A stretch of 44,641 nt of DNA from IMG/VR virus record IMGVR_UViG_3300010046_000001, positions 1 to 44,641 of that record; one strand, 5' to 3'. This document shows, one piece after another, positions 10,738-44,641 of the stretch (within the stretch, counting starts at the first letter, position 1; every line of letters starts with the position of its first letter). Under the pieces are notes generated by a model, which was not told where the DNA came from, ran no database searches, and saw only the letters and a list, made by a program, of their open reading frames with translations. The position numbers and the translations under genes were made by a program. This stretch comes from a virus.

Positions 10738-11522
10738 AGCCTCAATCCTTTCTTGATTGCCTCGAGGTTGCCCGCCGTGCGGCCCGTTACGCCACCGATT
10801 GGTTCGGCGGGCGGGACGTCTTCCCATTGCCGCTGGTTCAAGAACGTCGCCGGGTCTTCGATCCAGCCTGCTTGCCACTGTGCGCTCTGGCGCCAGCGCT
10901 CGACGCCGCGAAGAATCTCCGCCGCATGGCGGTCGCCCTGCGCCTTCTTCCAAGCCCTCAGCGCTGCGGGTCGGTGCCGCTTCTTGGGATAGGTCTCGTA
11001 GAAGCTGCCGAACAAACGGTCGCCCGTTTCTGGCGACCAACTGTTTGGTCTAGCCTCAGACGATTCAATAATCCCCGGAAGAACATCCGGAGAAGAGACC
11101 TCCGGAGTATCTGGCGTGACGAGACGAGACGGGCACGACTTTTGGCGGACAATGTCCGACGGATGGCGGACAATGTCCGGACATTGTCCGGACACGAATG
11201 CGATTCTCTTGCGCTTCAGGTACTTACGCCAACTGTCCGGCGCGTGGTCGTTCAGGTCGTGAATCACGAGCCGGTGGGTTTCACAGCAGCGGTCCAGCCA
11301 GCCGGTATCGACTAGGCATCGGACAAGCTCCTGTGAACCAGCGGGCCATCCGATGCCTTCCGCAATCGCGGCATCGCTATGACGCCCGACATCCCCGGCA
11401 GGCGCATAGTCGAACGTCCAATCCAGCAACGCATCGAGCAGTCCGAGAGCGGCGAAGGGCTCTAGCCCGAGCTGTCGCGCGAGTGCGCGGAGCTTCGGAT
11501 GCCTCACTGTACCGCGCTTCAT
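10734..11522 (-). CDS. putative replication initiator / replisome organizer (262 aa)
   Basis: ATGA coupling upstream. Contains an internal iteron cluster. C-terminal FYETYPKKRHRPAALRAWKKA DnaD/O-like motif (memory only). Confidence 0.5.
   Translation of the reverse strand: MKRGTVRHPKLRALARQLGLEPFAALGLLDALLDWTFDYAPAGDVGRHSDAAIAEGIGWPAGSQELVRCLVDTGWLDRCCETHRLVIHDLNDHAPDSWRKYLKRKRIAFVSGQCPDIVRHPSDIVRQKSCPSRLVTPDTPEVSSPDVLPGIIESSEARPNSWSPETGDRLFGSFYETYPKKRHRPAALRAWKKAQGDRHAAEILRGVERWRQSAQWQAGWIEDPATFLNQRQWEDVPPAEPIGGVTGRTAGNLEAIKKGLRL
11143..11194. repeat. Iteron cluster: TGGCGGACAATGTCCG x2 (11143-11158, 11164-11179) plus inverted GGACATTGTCC (11179-11189) and half-site GGACA
   Basis: Read directly. 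Each unit holds the palindrome GGACA-N-TGTCC. The direct copies are 21 bp apart. Confidence 0.85.
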
Positions 11523-12004
11523 GGCGCCGCCTTGTACCCACCGTGGAGCTGGCGCGGCTGCTGCGCGGTCGCATGGACGTGGCTCGGATAGAGCGCCGGT
11601 CGCCAGCCCTGGTGCTCGAGGCGCTTCCGGACCGCGCCCGGATCGAGTCCGAACGTCTCGCAGATGGAGACGAAAGCGAACGGATGATCCATCTGGTCGG
11701 ACCGAAACCATCGGATCAGGTCAGAGTGCTGCCGTATGACCCTCCAATTGCGTTTGCGGGCCACTGTGACGACGTCCACGGGACCGCTGAGAGGGACGAA
11801 CCGGAGCACCGGACCCCAGAGCTGCAGGTCACGGATCGCCATCTCGAGGACCGCGAGCATGAGCGCTCGCTCGCCCCGAGCAGGCATGTCCCGGACGCTC
11901 CCGTACTGCCCTGGCAGGACTAGATCGGGCTCGAGCAGGTCCGGTCTTGGGTTCGGTTTGCGCTGCTGTCCGACCACTGCCAGCCGACAACCAACCCGTC
12001 GCAT
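11519..12004 (-). CDS. hypothetical protein (161 aa), first gene of the leftward replication operon
   Basis: GGGAGGTGGGG RBS before ATG 12004. Track ORF starts at 12085. Confidence 0.55.
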   Translation of the reverse strand: MRRVGCRLAVVGQQRKPNPRPDLLEPDLVLPGQYGSVRDMPARGERALMLAVLEMAIRDLQLWGPVLRFVPLSGPVDVVTVARKRNWRVIRQHSDLIRWFRSDQMDHPFAFVSICETFGLDPGAVRKRLEHQGWRPALYPSHVHATAQQPRQLHGGYKAAP

Positions 12005-12009
12005 CCCCA

Positions 12010-12395
12010 CCTCCCTGTTCTCACGGAGGCGCCACGTAAGCCTCCGGAACATAAGGCATTCCATGGTATAGCTTCTGACCCGCAATCAGAAGGTCGGAAT
12101 GCCCGTGCCCGCAAACCCGCACTGGACGCAGGTTTGCGTGCGTTCTCACATCTGTTCTCACAAGAATCCGGAAGAATGAGAACAAATGCGAAAAAATCCC
12201 CACGAATGGGGAAGAACCTGCTAGAGCAGGCGGGCGCTAGGGGCGCGTAACTACTCGGATTCCCGAGTGCGCCCAGGCTGATTCGAACAGCCGACCTTCT
12301 GATTCGTAGTTGTAAGGTGATCGAGGCGCAAACGCTTGTGCGTTCAGGGACTTGCGGCGGTTCAGTTGGCCCCGTTCTCACGCCCGTTCTCATGG
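12010..12395 (-). other. attP region with arm-type repeats GTTCTCA
   Basis: GTTCTCA at 12017, 12142, 12154, 12374 and 12386, with the inverted copy TGAGAAC at 12177. These flank the tRNA-like core next to int. Confidence 0.75.
12268..12309 (-). other. attP core: 3' fragment of a tRNA-Arg(ACG) gene (anticodon loop to discriminator), not a complete tRNA
   Basis: Minus strand reads CTACGAA / TCAGA / AGGTC / GGCTG-TTCGAAT-CAGCC / TGGGCGC / A. No D-arm or 5' acceptor strand upstream. Confidence 0.7.
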
Positions 12396-13555
12396 GCGGT
12401 CCCGTTGACCAAGAGCTCGAGCCGATCAGCGGCTCCCGGATCGATGATCCGGATGGTCTTCGCATAGAGCATCGTGGTCGCGATCGAGGCGTGTCCGAGC
12501 TGCTGCTGAACCCACTGGACGGCGTTCACGTTTCTTGCATGGGTCAGATGCAGGCAGGCGAAGGTGTGCCGCAGCGAGTGCGCCGAGAACCCCTGGTCGG
12601 CGAGCCCTGCCTTCTTGAGCACCCAGCCGAATTCCGCCTGCACGTTCCGCTGCCCGTAGGGTGTTCCGTTCCGCGTGATGAAGACCCACGGCGGAGGCTT
12701 CGGCCAGCCCCGCTTGAGCACCAGCGCTGGCCGCGCCGCGATGATCTTCTCGAACGCCTTCCGGAGCCGGTTCGTGACGTCCACCGTCCGAGCTCGCTTG
12801 CCCTTCGTCCGTGACGGCACCTTGCCGGTCTCCGAGAGCTTCCGCTCCACGCGCATGCTGTTCTGCGAAAGCGACAGGTCTGTCAACCAGAGCCCCCGCC
12901 ACTCGCCGATCCGGAGTCCGGCGTCCAGCCCGGTCAGGAATTGGACGTAGAGCGGCGACGCGTTGGCGGCGAACAGGAACTTGTTCGCCTGCTCTTCGGT
13001 CATCGCCTTTCGCACCTCTTCGGTCTCGCCTGCGATCAGCTTCCGGATGCTCTTCGTCTTGACTGCCAAGGGATTCAGCGACAGCACCTCGTCGTCCACC
13101 GCTTCGGTCAGCATGGACGACATGGTCGCCCACATGATGCGGAGCGAGTCCCCCGCGTAGCCATCGGCCCGCTTCGCCGAGAGCAACGCCTTCATGTGCG
13201 CGATCCGGAATTCGACGGGTCGCATGGCGCCGATCGTCGTATGGTCAATCCGGAAATCTAGGACGTGGCGCTCGAGCGTGTCCCGGTAGGAGCGGACCGT
13301 CTTCGGTGCCAGCACCAGCGGGATCACGTCCGAGACCCAGTGCTCCGCGTAGGCGCGGAGGCTCTTCGACTTGTCCGCTGTGAGCGTCGGCTGCAACGTC
13401 GCCTGTTGCGCGAGTGCGCCGCTGGCGAGCCACTTTGCCGCCTGCTCTTCGGTCTCGAAGACCTTCTGCTTGCGGCGTCCGTGCGGGTCTTTCCACTCGA
13501 CTATCGGGACGAGCTTCCCCCGGACCTGCTTCGAGCTGACCCTACCGAACGCCAT
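12362..13555 (-). CDS. int: phage integrase, tyrosine recombinase family (397 aa)
   Basis: LRIGEWRGL (Arg), HSLRHTF (HxxR), LGHASIATTMLY (His...Tyr). Lies between the excisionase-like gene and attP. Confidence 0.92.
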   Translation of the reverse strand: MAFGRVSSKQVRGKLVPIVEWKDPHGRRKQKVFETEEQAAKWLASGALAQQATLQPTLTADKSKSLRAYAEHWVSDVIPLVLAPKTVRSYRDTLERHVLDFRIDHTTIGAMRPVEFRIAHMKALLSAKRADGYAGDSLRIMWATMSSMLTEAVDDEVLSLNPLAVKTKSIRKLIAGETEEVRKAMTEEQANKFLFAANASPLYVQFLTGLDAGLRIGEWRGLWLTDLSLSQNSMRVERKLSETGKVPSRTKGKRARTVDVTNRLRKAFEKIIAARPALVLKRGWPKPPPWVFITRNGTPYGQRNVQAEFGWVLKKAGLADQGFSAHSLRHTFACLHLTHARNVNAVQWVQQQLGHASIATTMLYAKTIRIIDPGAADRLELLVNGTAHENGRENGAN

Positions 13556-13558
13556 GAG

Positions 13559-13876
13559 TTACCTTCCCGTGCGCCTCCGCGACCGCAGCGGGCGTCCGTT
13601 GCCATTCTGAACGGATGGCGTGATCCCACGGCGTTTTCGAGGGAGGGGCACGGGAGGACTATACTCGGGGTCGGTGACGCCGTGCCAGTTCCGACGCTTC
13701 CACCGCTCGAGCTCCATCGGCTCCACGCGCTTGTCCTTCTGGCTCGAGCCAGTCCAGTTGATGCGGCGGGGATCGCCCGGTTTGAGTCGCATCAGGGCTT
13801 TGACGCGGCTCTCAGGCAGATGCAGCACGATGCCTACTTCTGTGGGCGTGAGCAGACGATCCACCGGTAACAGCAT
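13559..13876 (-). CDS. xis: excisionase-like HTH DNA-binding protein (105 aa)
   Basis: LLTPTEVGIVLHLPESRVKALM helix-turn-helix. Sits directly upstream of int. AGGGGGA RBS. Confidence 0.6.
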   Translation of the reverse strand: MLLPVDRLLTPTEVGIVLHLPESRVKALMRLKPGDPRRINWTGSSQKDKRVEPMELERWKRRNWHGVTDPEYSPPVPLPRKRRGITPSVQNGNGRPLRSRRRTGR

Positions 13877-14002: not shown

Positions 14003-14125
14003 TGTGACCGGGACGGGAACACCTCTCGGTTGGCAGACTTATAGCGTTACGTGGTCGGATTCAATGTCCGGATTCGGTCGCAAGAAAAAATTTGCGTTGT
14101 TCTCAATCGCAGGGTAGGGCGCCGC

Positions 14126-44518: not shown

Positions 44519-44641
44519 GTAGGAACGGTTATCGGTTTGTGGGCGGACGGGAGTCTTAAGAGCCGTCCTACGGTTCTCTGGAGGCTCGAGGTGGCGTGAC
44601 ACAAACACGCCTTGCCAATCGTAGTACGGGTGTAGTATGAA
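44519..44641. repeat. Terminal direct repeat, right copy
   Basis: Identical to 1-123. Indicates a closed or terminally redundant genome. Confidence 0.95.

What the first reader, a model, noticed from the sequence alone, without database searches (positions are those of the whole stretch)
12010..12395. Lambda-style attP built on a 42-nt tRNA-Arg(ACG) 3' fragment with six GTTCTCA arm-type repeats
Directly 3' of the integrase, the minus strand at 12268-12309 reads as the 3' part of a tRNA. The parts are anticodon loop CTACGAA (anticodon ACG), 3' anticodon-stem strand TCAGA, variable loop AGGTC, a perfect T-arm GGCTG-TTCGAAT-CAGCC, acceptor 3' strand TGGGCGC and discriminator A. No D-arm or 5' acceptor strand lies upstream, so it is a fragment and not a gene. 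This is what a phage that integrates into the 3' end of a host tRNA gene carries. Around it the heptamer GTTCTCA occurs at 12017, 12142, 12154, 12374 and 12386, and inverted at 12177. The last two copies sit inside the int 3' end, where they encode ENGRENG. This layout matches arm-type integrase sites on P and P' arms.
Basis: partly seen in the sequence, partly recalled or inferred. Interest (0 to 1): 0.7.

Follow-up and report, generated by a model that had tools for sequence, protein, structure and literature searches.

The report
Phage attachment site on tRNA-Arg fragment
This is the attachment site that a temperate soil phage most likely uses to insert into a bacterial arginine-tRNA gene. 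It is an ordinary kind of site, but relatives keep the same layout while changing the short repeat that the integrase probably reads.

Summary

- **The fragment.** Minus strand 12309->12268 is the last 42 nt of a tRNA-Arg(ACG), starting at the first base of the anticodon loop. No complete tRNA is present. It matches intact tRNA-Arg(ACG) genes in two soil MAGs exactly.
- **The repeats.** Six of the window's seven GTTCTCA copies lie within 376 bp around the fragment. Two of them sit inside the last codons of a 397-aa tyrosine integrase.
- **The genome.** The window is a circularly assembled 44.5-kb tailed-phage genome, so this is an intact attP.
- **Relatives.** At least eleven related elements keep one scaffold. 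The 7-mers lie at about -83/-71, +120 to +126 (inverted), +149/+161 and about +285 from the anticodon loop. The 7-mer itself differs (TGAGAAC, TGCGACG, TGCGGAC, TGCAAGC, TGGGACC), and so does the predicted arm-binding N-domain of Int.
- **tRNA constraint.** The fragment's T-stem changes only by compensatory pairs.
- **Integrated relatives.** Two relatives in bacterial contigs keep the int-side arm and the fragment but lack the distal arm (attR-type junctions).
- **Gaps.** I found no attL, no integrated copy of this phage, and no firm host.

This is a new member of a known kind (lambda/L5-type attP on a tRNA 3' half). One feature is unexplained: a conserved attB-like 12-7-12 palindrome in the distal arm.

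The parts
13559..13876 (-). Candidate excisionase (Xis-like, 105 aa) directly upstream of int
   Evidence: The ORF is conserved upstream of int in the window, L008, L009, L010, L011, L018 and L022. One family member matches HTH_17 (PF12728) at E = 6.7e-4; the window copy itself has no Pfam or PHROG hit. Weak.
12362..13555 (-). Tyrosine integrase, 397 aa, with three predicted domains
   Evidence: PF00589 at E = 2.9e-21. R215, K251, R329, H355 and Y364 are invariant and H326 nearly invariant in 30 homologues. The AF2 model (pLDDT 87.5) has b5-11, b14-22, b28-32 and a36-44 at the N-terminus, and a disordered tail at 386-397. Foldseek places Tn1549 Int first; full-length lambda Int aligns over 369 columns.
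12386..12392 (-). Int-proximal arm-type 7-mer TGAGAAC, position -83
   Evidence: It lies inside the int 3' end. The same position is occupied in all relatives that have sequence there.
12374..12380 (-). Int-proximal arm-type 7-mer TGAGAAC, position -71 (12-bp spacing from the first)
   Evidence: (family D1).
12331..12344 (.). Small palindrome AACGC-ACAA-GCGTT between the int stop codon and the core
   Evidence: Read. Most relatives have an inverted repeat at the same position with a different sequence (AGCGT-N7-ACGCT). Function unknown.
12314..12318 (-). Left core-type half-site (ACCTT), inverted with respect to AAGGT on the right of the loop
   Evidence: The sequence reads ACCTT-ACAA-CTACGAA-TCAG-AAGGT. 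CCTT is kept at this place in 8 of 12 relatives, the rest having CTT or CGTCTT, while the 4 nt next to the loop vary.
12303..12309 (-). Proposed 7-bp overlap (crossover) region, equal to the anticodon loop CTACGAA
   Evidence: In every family member the identity to the tRNA begins at the first loop base; the bases just 5' differ between members. Inference, not mapped.
12268..12309 (-). tRNA-Arg(ACG) 3' fragment, the common core (identity to L003 spans 12266-12310)
   Evidence: The T-stem is paired in 100% of cells across 10 distinct family fragments, and 4 of 5 pairs change on both sides.
12254..12267 (-). Hairpin CTCGG-GAAT-CCGAG directly after the tRNA 3' end, part of a block conserved in the family (+42..+62)
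   Evidence: L002 has 15 of 18 matching bases at the same place after its intact tRNA.
12191..12212 (-). Intrinsic-terminator-like hairpin TCCCCATTCGTGGGGA followed by TTTTTT
   Evidence: Relatives have a hairpin at the same position with compensating stem sequences. A role as terminator of int, or of the rebuilt tRNA, is inferred.
12177..12183 (+). Distal-arm 7-mer TGAGAAC in inverted orientation, position +126
12154..12160 (-). Distal-arm 7-mer TGAGAAC, position +149
12142..12148 (-). Distal-arm 7-mer TGAGAAC, position +161
12110..12138 (.). GC-rich hairpin/palindrome CGCAAACC...GGTTTGCG, conserved in sequence across the different arm classes
   Evidence: (I6). Function unknown.
12067..12097 (.). 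attB-like 12-7-12 palindrome (int-sense CCGACCTTCTGA-TTGCGGG-TCAGAAGCTATA). One half is a 14-nt perfect inverted copy of the core segment AATCAGAAGGTCGG.
   Evidence: I4. An equivalent palindrome with TCTGA-N7-TCAGA or a near variant (TCTAA or TCTTA on the left) at its centre is present in L008, L009, L010, L017, L018, L022, L080 and L082 (two copies), and absent in L011 and L086. Unexplained.
12017..12023 (-). Outermost distal-arm 7-mer TGAGAAC, position +286, just upstream of the Shine-Dalgarno sequence of the next gene
11519..12004 (-). 161-aa gene of unknown function that borders the distal arm (it would sit next to attL in a prophage)
   Evidence: SD GGGAGGTG plus ATG. It is called as a 161-aa gene in the source contig. 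The family is conserved next to attP. No Pfam or PHROG hit.

Best explanation
The stretch 12017-12392 is the attP of a temperate tailed phage, and it works on the lambda/L5 model.

**Proposed mechanism**
1. The 397-aa integrase has two DNA-binding ends. Its N-terminal sheet-plus-helix domain binds the TGAGAAC 7-mers. These comprise two direct copies in the int-proximal arm (-83, -71) and four in the distal arm (+126 inverted, +149, +161, +286).
2. Its core-binding and catalytic domains bind the imperfect inverted repeat ACCTT-N4 / N4-AAGGT. This repeat flanks the 7-bp anticodon-loop sequence CTACGAA.
3. The folded intasome captures the anticodon stem-loop of a host tRNA-Arg(ACG) gene (TCTGA-CTACGAA-TCAGA), which is a natural inverted repeat. 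Strands are exchanged within the loop.
4. The phage-borne 35 nt that follow the loop then replace the host's own 3' part. An intact tRNA-Arg is rebuilt at the distal-arm junction, followed by the phage hairpin and terminator. The host's displaced 3' part is left beside int.
5. The small upstream ORF probably supplies excision directionality.

**Shown here**
- The sequence features and their non-random clustering.
- The fragment's identity to real tRNA genes.
- Conservation of the repeat positions alongside change of the repeat sequence.
- Compensatory changes in the T-stem.
- The predicted three-domain fold of Int.
- attR-type junctions in two integrated relatives.

**Inferred**
- That Int binds the 7-mers.
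- The exact cleavage positions.
- Any role of host bending factors or of Xis.
- The role of the terminator.
For: **The genome is free and circular**
- The window has a 123-nt terminal overlap and encodes TerL, portal and tail-fibre proteins.

**The fragment is a real tRNA part**
- It is identical to intact tRNA-Arg(ACG) genes.

**The repeats are non-random and positionally conserved**
- Six of the seven 7-mer copies cluster around the core.
- The window, L008, L009, L010, L011, L017, L018, L022/L024, L082, L086 and L080 (distal arm only) share the layout. The int stop codon lies at -55 (-52 in L086). The repeats lie at -83/-71, +119 to +126 (inverted), +149/+161 (+139/+150 in L011), and about +285 in all but L086 (inverted in L010 and L022).
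- The 7-mer itself differs: TGAGAAC, TGCGACG, TGCGGAC or TGGGACC.
- L001 and L108 carry TGCAAGC x2 at the same int-side place.
- L115 carries TGTCAGC x2 at -82/-70 from a tRNA-Lys(UUU) loop.

**Int fits the model**
- Its N-terminal residues group by 7-mer class.
- The AF2 N-domain is b-b-b-a, and full-length lambda Int aligns over 369 columns.
- The Int tail encoded by the two int-side repeats is disordered and differs by class: ENGRENG, ATMxAT, ADSRADS.

**The fragment is under tRNA constraint**
- The T-stem is 100% paired. Four of five pairs are compensatory, with a covariation score of 0.907 against 0.209 in shuffles.
- The parts that must pair with the host 5' half never vary.

**Integrated relatives break at the fragment**
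- L001 (1.24-Mb contig) and L108 have int, the int-side arm and the fragment, then bacterial or remnant DNA with no distal arm.
- L001 carries three serial fragments, the usual mark of repeated integration at one tRNA gene.

**Literature**
- Common cores of 30-45 bp covering the tRNA 3' half, with flanking arm-type sites, are the norm for tyrosine-integrase phages (PMC10865867).
- The anticodon loop is one of three recognised crossover sublocations (bioRxiv 10.1101/2020.11.02.365908, citing Williams 2002).
Against: - I found no attL (intact tRNA followed by the distal arm) in JGI metagenome contigs, in IMG/VR, or within 10 kb of the L001 integrase.
- I found no integrated copy of this phage itself.
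- Pfam does not recognise the N-domain as arm-binding (Arm-DNA-bind_4, E = 0.53). That assignment rests on a predicted fold.
- The 7-mers could in principle be read by another protein that co-varies with them.
- The exact 42-mer occurs in only 3 of 185,579 representative genomes. All three loci carry mobile-element traces, so these may be phage-supplied alleles rather than native attB sites.
Confidence: 0.85

Rival explanations
1. It is an attP, but strand exchange occurs elsewhere in the 42-45-bp identity block (the T-loop or the 3' end of the tRNA), not in the anticodon loop.
For: The T-loop and the 3' end are the other two recognised sublocations (bioRxiv 10.1101/2020.11.02.365908). The T-arm is also an inverted repeat. 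No cleavage site was mapped here.
Against: - In every family member the identity starts exactly at the first anticodon-loop base, and the bases just 5' differ between members.
- A phage that crosses over in the T-loop would have no need to carry the loop, the 3' anticodon-stem strand and the variable region unchanged.
- The T-stem differs between members. That is tolerable only if it lies downstream of the exchange.
- A partly conserved inverted repeat (C)CTT-N4 / N4-AAGG brackets the loop.
- L115 keeps the same distance from its repeat pair to the anticodon loop of a different tRNA.
Confidence: 0.1
2. The 7-mers are binding sites for a protein other than the integrase. Candidates are the Xis-like protein, a repressor, or the product of the adjacent 161-aa gene. 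On this reading they are operators or iterons that merely lie near attP.
For: Binding was not tested. One copy lies just upstream of the 161-aa gene's ribosome-binding site. Another lies in the intergenic region upstream of xis. L018 and L022 have their own 7-mer in the equivalent intergenic region.
Against: - The repeats flank the core on both sides at fixed distances, in twelve-base-spaced pairs, as arm-type sites do.
- The int-side pair stays with int in the integrated relatives L001 and L108, whose other genes are unrelated to this phage (Prim-Pol/AAA_25 island).
- L086 and L115 keep the repeat pair in the int 3' end (L086 also keeps the rest of the layout) but have different neighbouring genes.
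- Int is the only protein common to all of these elements.
- The Int N-domain residues differ by 7-mer class.
Confidence: 0.08
3. The fragment is a decaying phage-encoded tRNA gene, or a scar of an old recombination event, and the site no longer functions.
For: No complete tRNA is present. No integrated copy of this phage was found.
Against: - The fragment is 42/42 identical to working tRNA genes.
- Family fragments change only by compensatory T-stem pairs, unlike the displaced, decaying copy in L001, which carries two disruptive changes.
- The int ORF is intact with all catalytic residues.
- The layout is maintained across relatives of 41-86% Int identity.
Confidence: 0.04

Closest known systems
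Bacteriophage lambda Int / attP (POP')
   Same: - Gene order xis, int, then attP downstream of int.
- An integrase with an N-terminal arm-binding domain plus core-binding and catalytic domains. Here this is predicted, and lambda Int chains 1z1b/1z1g align over about 360 columns.
- Arm-type repeats on both sides of a core made of inverted core-type sites around a 7-bp overlap.
- A terminator beyond the core that integration would separate from int. This recalls sib/tI, which I cite from established knowledge.
   Different: - About 17% structure-based identity.
- The core is the anticodon arm of a tRNA gene, not an intergenic 15-bp core.
- The arm motif is a 7-mer, with six copies in a 2 + 4 arrangement.
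- Two arm sites lie inside the int coding sequence.
- Accessory factors are unknown.
Mycobacteriophage L5 and other tyrosine-integrase actinophages that integrate into tRNA genes
   Same: The common core is about 43 bp and consists of the tRNA 3' half, so that the tRNA is rebuilt at one junction. Pairs of arm-type sites flank the core. The Int organisation is lambda-like (PMC10865867).
   Different: - No detectable close sequence relationship. The best GenBank phage integrase is 25% identical.
- The target is tRNA-Arg(ACG).
- The host is an uncultured high-GC soil bacterium.
Anticodon-loop class of tRNA-gene integration sites (Williams 2002, as summarised in bioRxiv 10.1101/2020.11.02.365908; the Islander database, PMC4383910, appeared in the same search but was not read)
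   Same: [quoted passage not shown] The symmetric anticodon stem flanks the proposed crossover. Relatives of one integrase subfamily keep the sublocation while using another tRNA (L115, tRNA-Lys(UUU)).
   Different: Membership rests on sequence boundaries only. No crossover has been mapped for this family.
Tn1549 / Tn916-family integrases
   Same: They are the closest solved structures for the core-binding and catalytic domains (6emy at E = 8e-14 by sequence; 6en2 at Foldseek E = 9e-12, TM 0.76).
   Different: Those are conjugative-transposon integrases with relaxed target choice and no tRNA core. Sequence identity is 17-20%.

Membership tests
Tyrosine recombinases (Phage_integrase, PF00589) | Catalytic domain with the R-K-H-R-H/W-Y residues | tested here: met
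   PF00589 at E = 2.9e-21. R215, K251, R329, H355 and Y364 are invariant and H326 nearly invariant in 30 homologues.
Heterobivalent (lambda-type) integrases | A separate N-terminal arm-binding domain (three-stranded sheet packed on a helix) | tested here: met
   The AF2 model has b5-11, b14-22, b28-32 and a36-44, with pLDDT 71-90. Full-length lambda Int aligns over 369 columns, against about 312 for the 75-356 construct. Pfam Arm-DNA-bind_4 reaches only E = 0.53, so the result rests on a predicted structure.
Heterobivalent (lambda-type) integrases | The N-domain binds the arm-type repeats | not testable with these tools
   Indirect evidence only: the N-domain residues differ by 7-mer class.
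Lambda-style attP | Arm-type repeats, distinct in sequence from the core sites, on both sides of the core | tested here: met
   Two copies on the int side and four on the distal side. The positions are conserved in at least eleven relatives that use five different 7-mers.
Lambda-style attP | Inverted core-type sites around a 6-8-bp overlap region | tested here: inconclusive
   The pattern ACCTT-N4-CTACGAA-N4-AAGGT is present and partly conserved in relatives (CCTT in 8 of 12). Cleavage positions have not been mapped.
Lambda-style attP | An excisionase (recombination directionality factor) encoded next to int | tested here: inconclusive
   A 105-aa ORF is conserved upstream of int. One relative matches HTH_17 at E = 6.7e-4. 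The window copy has no hit.
tRNA-gene-targeting attP (common core = tRNA 3' part) | The phage carries a 3' tRNA segment identical to a bacterial tRNA gene, without the 5' part | tested here: met
   42/42 identity to tRNA-Arg(acg) in L002 and L003. No tRNA is called in the window.
tRNA-gene-targeting attP (common core = tRNA 3' part) | Integrated copies are bounded by an intact tRNA (attL) and a displaced 3' fragment (attR) | tested here: inconclusive
   attR-type junctions were found for two relatives, L001 and L108. I found no attL and no integrated copy of this phage.
Anticodon-loop sublocation class | The identity block begins in the anticodon loop | tested here: met
   The identity starts at loop base 1 in all members, and the 5' neighbours vary.

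The most novel reading that the evidence does not exclude
The conserved 12-7-12 palindrome in the distal arm (window 12067-12097; TCTGA-N7-TCAGA or a near variant at its centre, up to 10/10 identical to the right half of attB in L010) may be a second core-type integrase site. On this reading it is a built-in mimic of the tRNA anticodon arm. It would either take part in assembling the recombination complex or let Int control the adjacent operon.

Taken together with the six interchangeable 7-mers on one fixed scaffold, the family would then be a natural system for reading how arm-binding domains recognise DNA. It would also point to a new regulatory layer in attP.
Probability: 0.15. Interest if true: 0.6.

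Novelty: new member of a known kind. Interest (0 to 1): 0.4.

Why it matters
- **An uncharted family.** It documents a complete integration module (xis-like gene, int, attP) in an uncultured soil phage lineage. Its integrase is at most 25% identical to any GenBank phage integrase.
- **A natural swap experiment.** The family keeps one attP scaffold while using at least five different arm 7-mers, plus a sixth in a relative that targets tRNA-Lys. The Int N-terminal strands change in parallel. This offers a ready-made comparison for working out arm-site recognition and for building orthogonal integrases.
- **Host clues only.** tRNA-Arg(ACG) genes with acceptor GCGCCCA/TGGGCGC occur in Limnocylindria, Binatia and a 'delta proteobacterium' MAG. 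This narrows the host but does not name it.
- **Otherwise textbook.** The site itself behaves as expected for a tRNA-targeting attP.

Tried and rejected
- **Rfam** at E<=10 over 11500-13000 gave no tRNA match and only chance-level hits.
- **blastn of the int-attP region** against 50,697 GenBank phages gave no match. tblastn of Int found at best 25% identity.
- **An attL-specific pattern** (anticodon stem TCTGA + core + family-specific distal flank) in JGI metagenome contigs gave 0 hits.
- **The 161-aa neighbour family.** I searched for it in IMG/VR and in metagenome contigs (64 loci). No locus had a complete tRNA upstream.
- **A full anticodon-arm pattern in IMG/VR** gave 21 loci, all with other acceptor stems. 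None belongs to this family.
- **The L001 integrase with 10-kb flanks** showed no complete tRNA within 10 kb upstream. That element is longer than this and contains a Prim-Pol/AAA_25 gene and a transposase.
- **L083 (40% Int)** has a different layout, with an intact tRNA-Arg convergent with int. No repeat of the tRNA of 12 nt or longer occurs elsewhere in its 21 kb.
- **Contigs for P0121 and P0145** had no DNA available.
- **The second recombinase** has no relatives in IMG/VR with a single-sequence query. I could not test a link between it and the palindrome.
- **GC content** does not discriminate between candidate hosts. The phage is at 62.6% and all candidates at 68-72%.
- **L002 and L003 as attL sites** of family prophages: neither has 7-mers at the family positions, so I rejected that reading.
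- **Contig ends at the block edges** (L007, L080, L111-L113) show that the core is repeated in those communities. I did not accept them as proof of integration.
Full report
**1. What is in the sequence**

The integrase ORF runs 13555->12362 on the minus strand. It is 397 aa and matches PF00589 at E = 2.9e-21.

Fifty-two bases past its stop codon, the minus strand reads CTACGAA TCAGA AGGTC GGCTG TTCGAAT CAGCC TGGGCGC A (12309->12268). This is the anticodon loop, the 3' anticodon-stem strand, the variable loop, the T-arm, the 3' acceptor strand and the discriminator of a tRNA-Arg(ACG).

ARAGORN calls no tRNA in the whole window. Rfam reports no tRNA in the region even at E<=10.

GTTCTCA occurs seven times in the window. 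Shuffles predict 4.42 copies for the whole window, so about 0.04 are expected in 376 bp.

The two copies at 12374 and 12386 lie in the last codons of int, whose product ends ...AHENGRENGAN.

**2. Nature of the window**

The first and last 123 nt of the window are identical. The source is a 44,659-nt contig. Large ORFs match terminase large subunit, portal, tail fibre and a lytic tail protein.

This is therefore a circularly assembled, free tailed-phage genome. The site is an intact attP, not a prophage end.

No GenBank phage resembles it at the DNA level. The best GenBank phage integrase is 25% identical.

**3. Does a bacterial tRNA share the fragment?**

An exact search for the 42-mer in one genome per GTDB species gave three hits.

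- **L002** (Limnocylindria MAG) and **L003** (Binatia MAG) carry it as the 3' part of complete tRNA-Arg(acg) genes. Identity to L003 spans 45 nt. In L002, 15 of the 18 bases after the tRNA also match the phage.
- **L001** (a 'delta proteobacterium' MAG, 1.24-Mb contig) has no complete tRNA at the hit. It has an integrase 41% identical to ours, followed by the fragment.

All three loci carry mobile-element traces:

- L001 has three serial fragments.
- L002 has transposase fragments on both sides of the tRNA.
- L003 has a weak transposase fragment.

So I cannot say whether the 42-mer is the hosts' native allele or one supplied by elements of this family.

**4. The family and its scaffold**

Searches with the integrase and with the 161-aa gene that borders the site recovered relatives from IMG/VR, JGI, ENA, NCBI and Logan assemblies. 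I set position 0 at the first base of the anticodon loop and read in the direction of int.

The following all have an attP with one common geometry: the window, L008, L009, L010, L011, L017, L018, L022/L024, L082, L086, and L080 (distal arm only).

- The int stop codon lies at -55 (-52 in L086).
- Two direct 7-mers lie at -83 and -71.
- The tRNA fragment occupies 0 to +41.
- An inverted 7-mer lies at +119 to +126.
- Two direct 7-mers lie at +149 and +161 (+139 and +150 in L011).
- In all but L086, one more lies near +285, inverted in L010 and L022. In the window it sits just before the ribosome-binding site of the next gene.

The 7-mer itself is not conserved:

| 7-mer | Elements |
|---|---|
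| TGAGAAC | window, L008, L080 |
| TGCGACG | L009, L010, L017, L018, L022, L082 |
| TGCGGAC | L011 |
| TGGGACC | L086 |
| TGCAAGC | L001, L108 |

A more distant relative, L115, has TGTCAGC twice at -82/-70 from the anticodon loop of a tRNA-Lys(UUU) fragment. Fixed positions with a changing sequence is what is expected of sites read by a co-evolving protein domain. It is hard to explain otherwise.

**5. The integrase**

In an alignment of 30 homologues, R215, K251, R329, H355 and Y364 are invariant and H326 is nearly invariant. The AlphaFold model (mean pLDDT 87.5) gives three strands (5-11, 14-22, 28-32) and a helix (36-44), followed by the core-binding and catalytic domains. The last 12 residues are disordered.

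Foldseek ranks Tn1549 Int first (TM 0.76). It aligns full-length lambda Int over 369 columns, against about 312 for lambda Int 75-356. This indicates that the N-domain is matched as well. Pfam does not recognise the N-domain (Arm-DNA-bind_4, E = 0.53).

In the alignment of N-termini, residues in the three strands group by 7-mer class. At positions 15-18, for example:

- LVPI / VTPI go with TGAGAAC.
- VRY(T/L) / VRFC go with TGCGACG and TGCGGAC.
- VRWK / PRWK go with TGCAAGC.

The disordered C-terminal tail is simply the translation of the two int-side sites, and it changes with them: ENGRENG, ATMxAT, ADSRADS.

**6. The fragment is under tRNA constraint**

I compared ten distinct fragments (the family's plus the 3' part of L083's intact tRNA-Arg). 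One loop base varies only in the L083 tRNA and one T-loop base varies. Otherwise the anticodon loop, the 3' anticodon-stem strand, the variable loop, the T-loop and the 3' acceptor strand are invariant.

The T-stem varies, yet every cell still pairs. Four of the five pairs change on both sides. The covariation score is 0.907 against 0.209 in shuffles, and no shuffle reached it.

The invariant parts are the ones that must pair with the host's 5' half after integration. The variable part is a self-contained hairpin. This fits a fragment whose purpose is to rebuild a working tRNA.

**7. Where the exchange probably occurs**

In all members the identity to the tRNA begins at the first loop base. 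The four bases 5' of it differ from the tRNA (TCTGA) and from one another: ACAA, ACGA, CCTG, CCTC, CTAT, CTGT, AGAA, CTTG.

Further out, the left flank keeps CCTT in 8 of 12 members (ACCTT in the window), the inverse of the AAGG(T) on the right. This gives ACCTT-N4-CTACGAA-N4-AAGGT. In the host gene the anticodon stem supplies the equivalent symmetry.

I therefore place the 7-bp overlap in the anticodon loop (12303-12309). This is the 'anticodon-loop sublocation' of tRNA integration sites (bioRxiv 10.1101/2020.11.02.365908). It is an inference from boundaries, not a mapped cleavage.

**8. Integrated relatives**

- **L001.** This lies in a 1.24-Mb contig. It has int, TGCAAGC x2 at -83/-71, and the fragment. 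No further TGCAAGC follows in the next 500 bp. Upstream genes are an HTH protein and a Prim-Pol/AAA_25 protein. Downstream lie two more tRNA-Arg fragments, one of them decaying, then a YoeB/Phd toxin-antitoxin pair and ordinary bacterial genes.
- **L108.** This has the same int-side pair and a fragment with its own T-stem. Within 140 bp, transglutaminase, ATP-grasp and radical-SAM genes follow.

Both are what an attR junction should look like, so relatives do have their junction at the core.

I could not find the matching attL:

- The attL-specific pattern gave no hit in metagenome contigs.
- No locus with the 161-aa gene has a complete tRNA upstream.
- Ten kilobases upstream of the L001 integrase contain no tRNA.

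**9. Other features of the site**

Several other elements are conserved in the family:

- A small palindrome between the int stop codon and the core (12331-12344).
- A block just after the tRNA end that includes the hairpin CTCGG-GAAT-CCGAG (12254-12267).
- A hairpin at 12197-12212. In the window it is followed by TTTTTT and scores as an intrinsic terminator.
- A GC-rich hairpin (12110-12138) whose sequence is kept across the arm classes.

After integration, the terminator would lie downstream of the rebuilt tRNA and would be separated from int. This recalls lambda's sib arrangement, but it is only an inference.

**10. The attB-like palindrome**

The most curious element is a 12-7-12 palindrome at 12067-12097 (int-sense CCGACCTTCTGA-TTGCGGG-TCAGAAGCTATA).

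- One half is a perfect 14-nt inverted copy of the core segment AATCAGAAGGTCGG.
- Equivalent palindromes with TCTGA-N7-TCAGA or a near variant (TCTAA or TCTTA on the left) at the centre occur in L008, L009, L010, L017, L018, L022, L080 and L082 (two copies). They are absent from L011 and L086.
- In L010 the palindrome matches attB at 7/7 bases on the left and 10/10 on the right.
- In L009, L017 and L018, however, the half-site is TCAGA(T/C)GCTCAA. This departs from the AAGGT kept by all core sites, which weakens the idea that Int reads it.

It could be a second core-type Int site, an operator for the adjacent operon, or a simple recombination site for the phage's second tyrosine recombinase (4843-5802). 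I could not decide between these.

**11. Comparison with known systems, and verdict**

The module works like lambda's: xis, int, then attP; a two-ended integrase; arm sites on both sides. It resembles still more closely the mycobacteriophage L5 type. There, a common core of 30-45 bp is the 3' half of a tRNA gene, and pairs of arm-type sites flank it (PMC10865867).

The defining features that can be tested by sequence are met. Protein binding, cleavage positions and a complete attL/attR pair are not established.

This is a new member of a known kind, from an uncharacterised integrase lineage. Interest is moderate. It rests on the family-wide swap of the arm motif on a fixed scaffold, and on the unexplained attB-like palindrome.

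Noticed in passing
window 4843-5802 (+): A second tyrosine recombinase (319 aa; PF00589 at E = 2e-19, PHROG 'integrase'), far from the attP. Its site and role are unknown. It might act on the 12-7-12 palindrome or resolve multimers.
   Followed up: partly
window 12067-12097: A 12-7-12 palindrome that mimics the tRNA-Arg anticodon arm, with a 14-nt perfect inverted copy of part of the core. It is conserved in most relatives but absent in L011 and L086.
   Followed up: partly
window 12110-12138: A GC-rich hairpin/palindrome (CGCAAACC...GGTTTGCG). Its sequence is conserved across relatives with different arm 7-mers, so its reader, if there is one, is common to them all.
   Followed up: no
window 14079-14105: The seventh GTTCTCA copy sits right after a terminator-like hairpin, in the divergent intergenic region upstream of the xis-like gene. 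L018 and L022 have their own 7-mer in the equivalent region; L008, L009 and L010 do not. This may be Int autoregulation or chance.
   Followed up: partly
window 1-123 and 44519-44641: An exact 123-nt terminal overlap, which indicates a circular assembly of about 44.5 kb.
   Followed up: yes
L001 2441-3633 (= L114 11247-12440): Three serial tRNA-Arg(ACG) 3' fragments in one orientation downstream of the integrase. The middle one carries two disruptive T-arm changes. It is preceded by TGGCGAC x2 (12-bp spacing) and a stop codon, apparently the remnant of another element's int 3' end.
   Followed up: partly
L115 7733-7870: A relative (48% identical to the L001 Int) with TGTCAGC x2 in the int 3' end, at -82/-70 from the anticodon loop of a tRNA-Lys(UUU) 3' fragment. 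The scaffold is the same but the target tRNA differs.
   Followed up: partly
L083 11150-11290: A 40%-identical integrase in a 202-kb contig lies convergent with an intact tRNA-Arg(ACG). TTCGCTGACCGG x2 lies within the last codons of int, just short of the tRNA 3' end. This is the opposite orientation of core and int. No second copy of the tRNA part occurs within 21 kb.
   Followed up: partly
L002 2200-2216 and flanks: The 18 nt after the intact Limnocylindria tRNA-Arg match the phage's distal flank at 15 positions. The tRNA lies between a Mutator-transposase fragment and an IstB fragment. This is either a clue to the host lineage or a scar of a family element.
   Followed up: partly
L007, L080, L111, L112, L113 (contig ends): Contigs from four independent assemblies stop at the edges of the tRNA-identity block (positions 0, 0, +16, +28 and +40). 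This is expected if the block is repeated in other contexts in those communities. The L112 start at +16 would fit a competing trailer CTCG, as after L001 fragment 3.
   Followed up: partly
L087, L089, L094, L098, L100, L101, L105 (IMG/VR sample 3300045988): An unrelated group of about 43-45-kb viral contigs carries a different tRNA-Arg(ACG) 3' fragment. Its identity to the tRNA starts in the anticodon stem (ATTCTGA-CTACGAA...), and CGTTGCA repeats lie downstream. The same tRNA type appears to be used by another phage group.
   Followed up: no
window 11519-12004 (-): The 161-aa protein family next to the distal arm has no Pfam or PHROG match. About 100 homologues exist in soil and freshwater metagenomes.
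   Followed up: no
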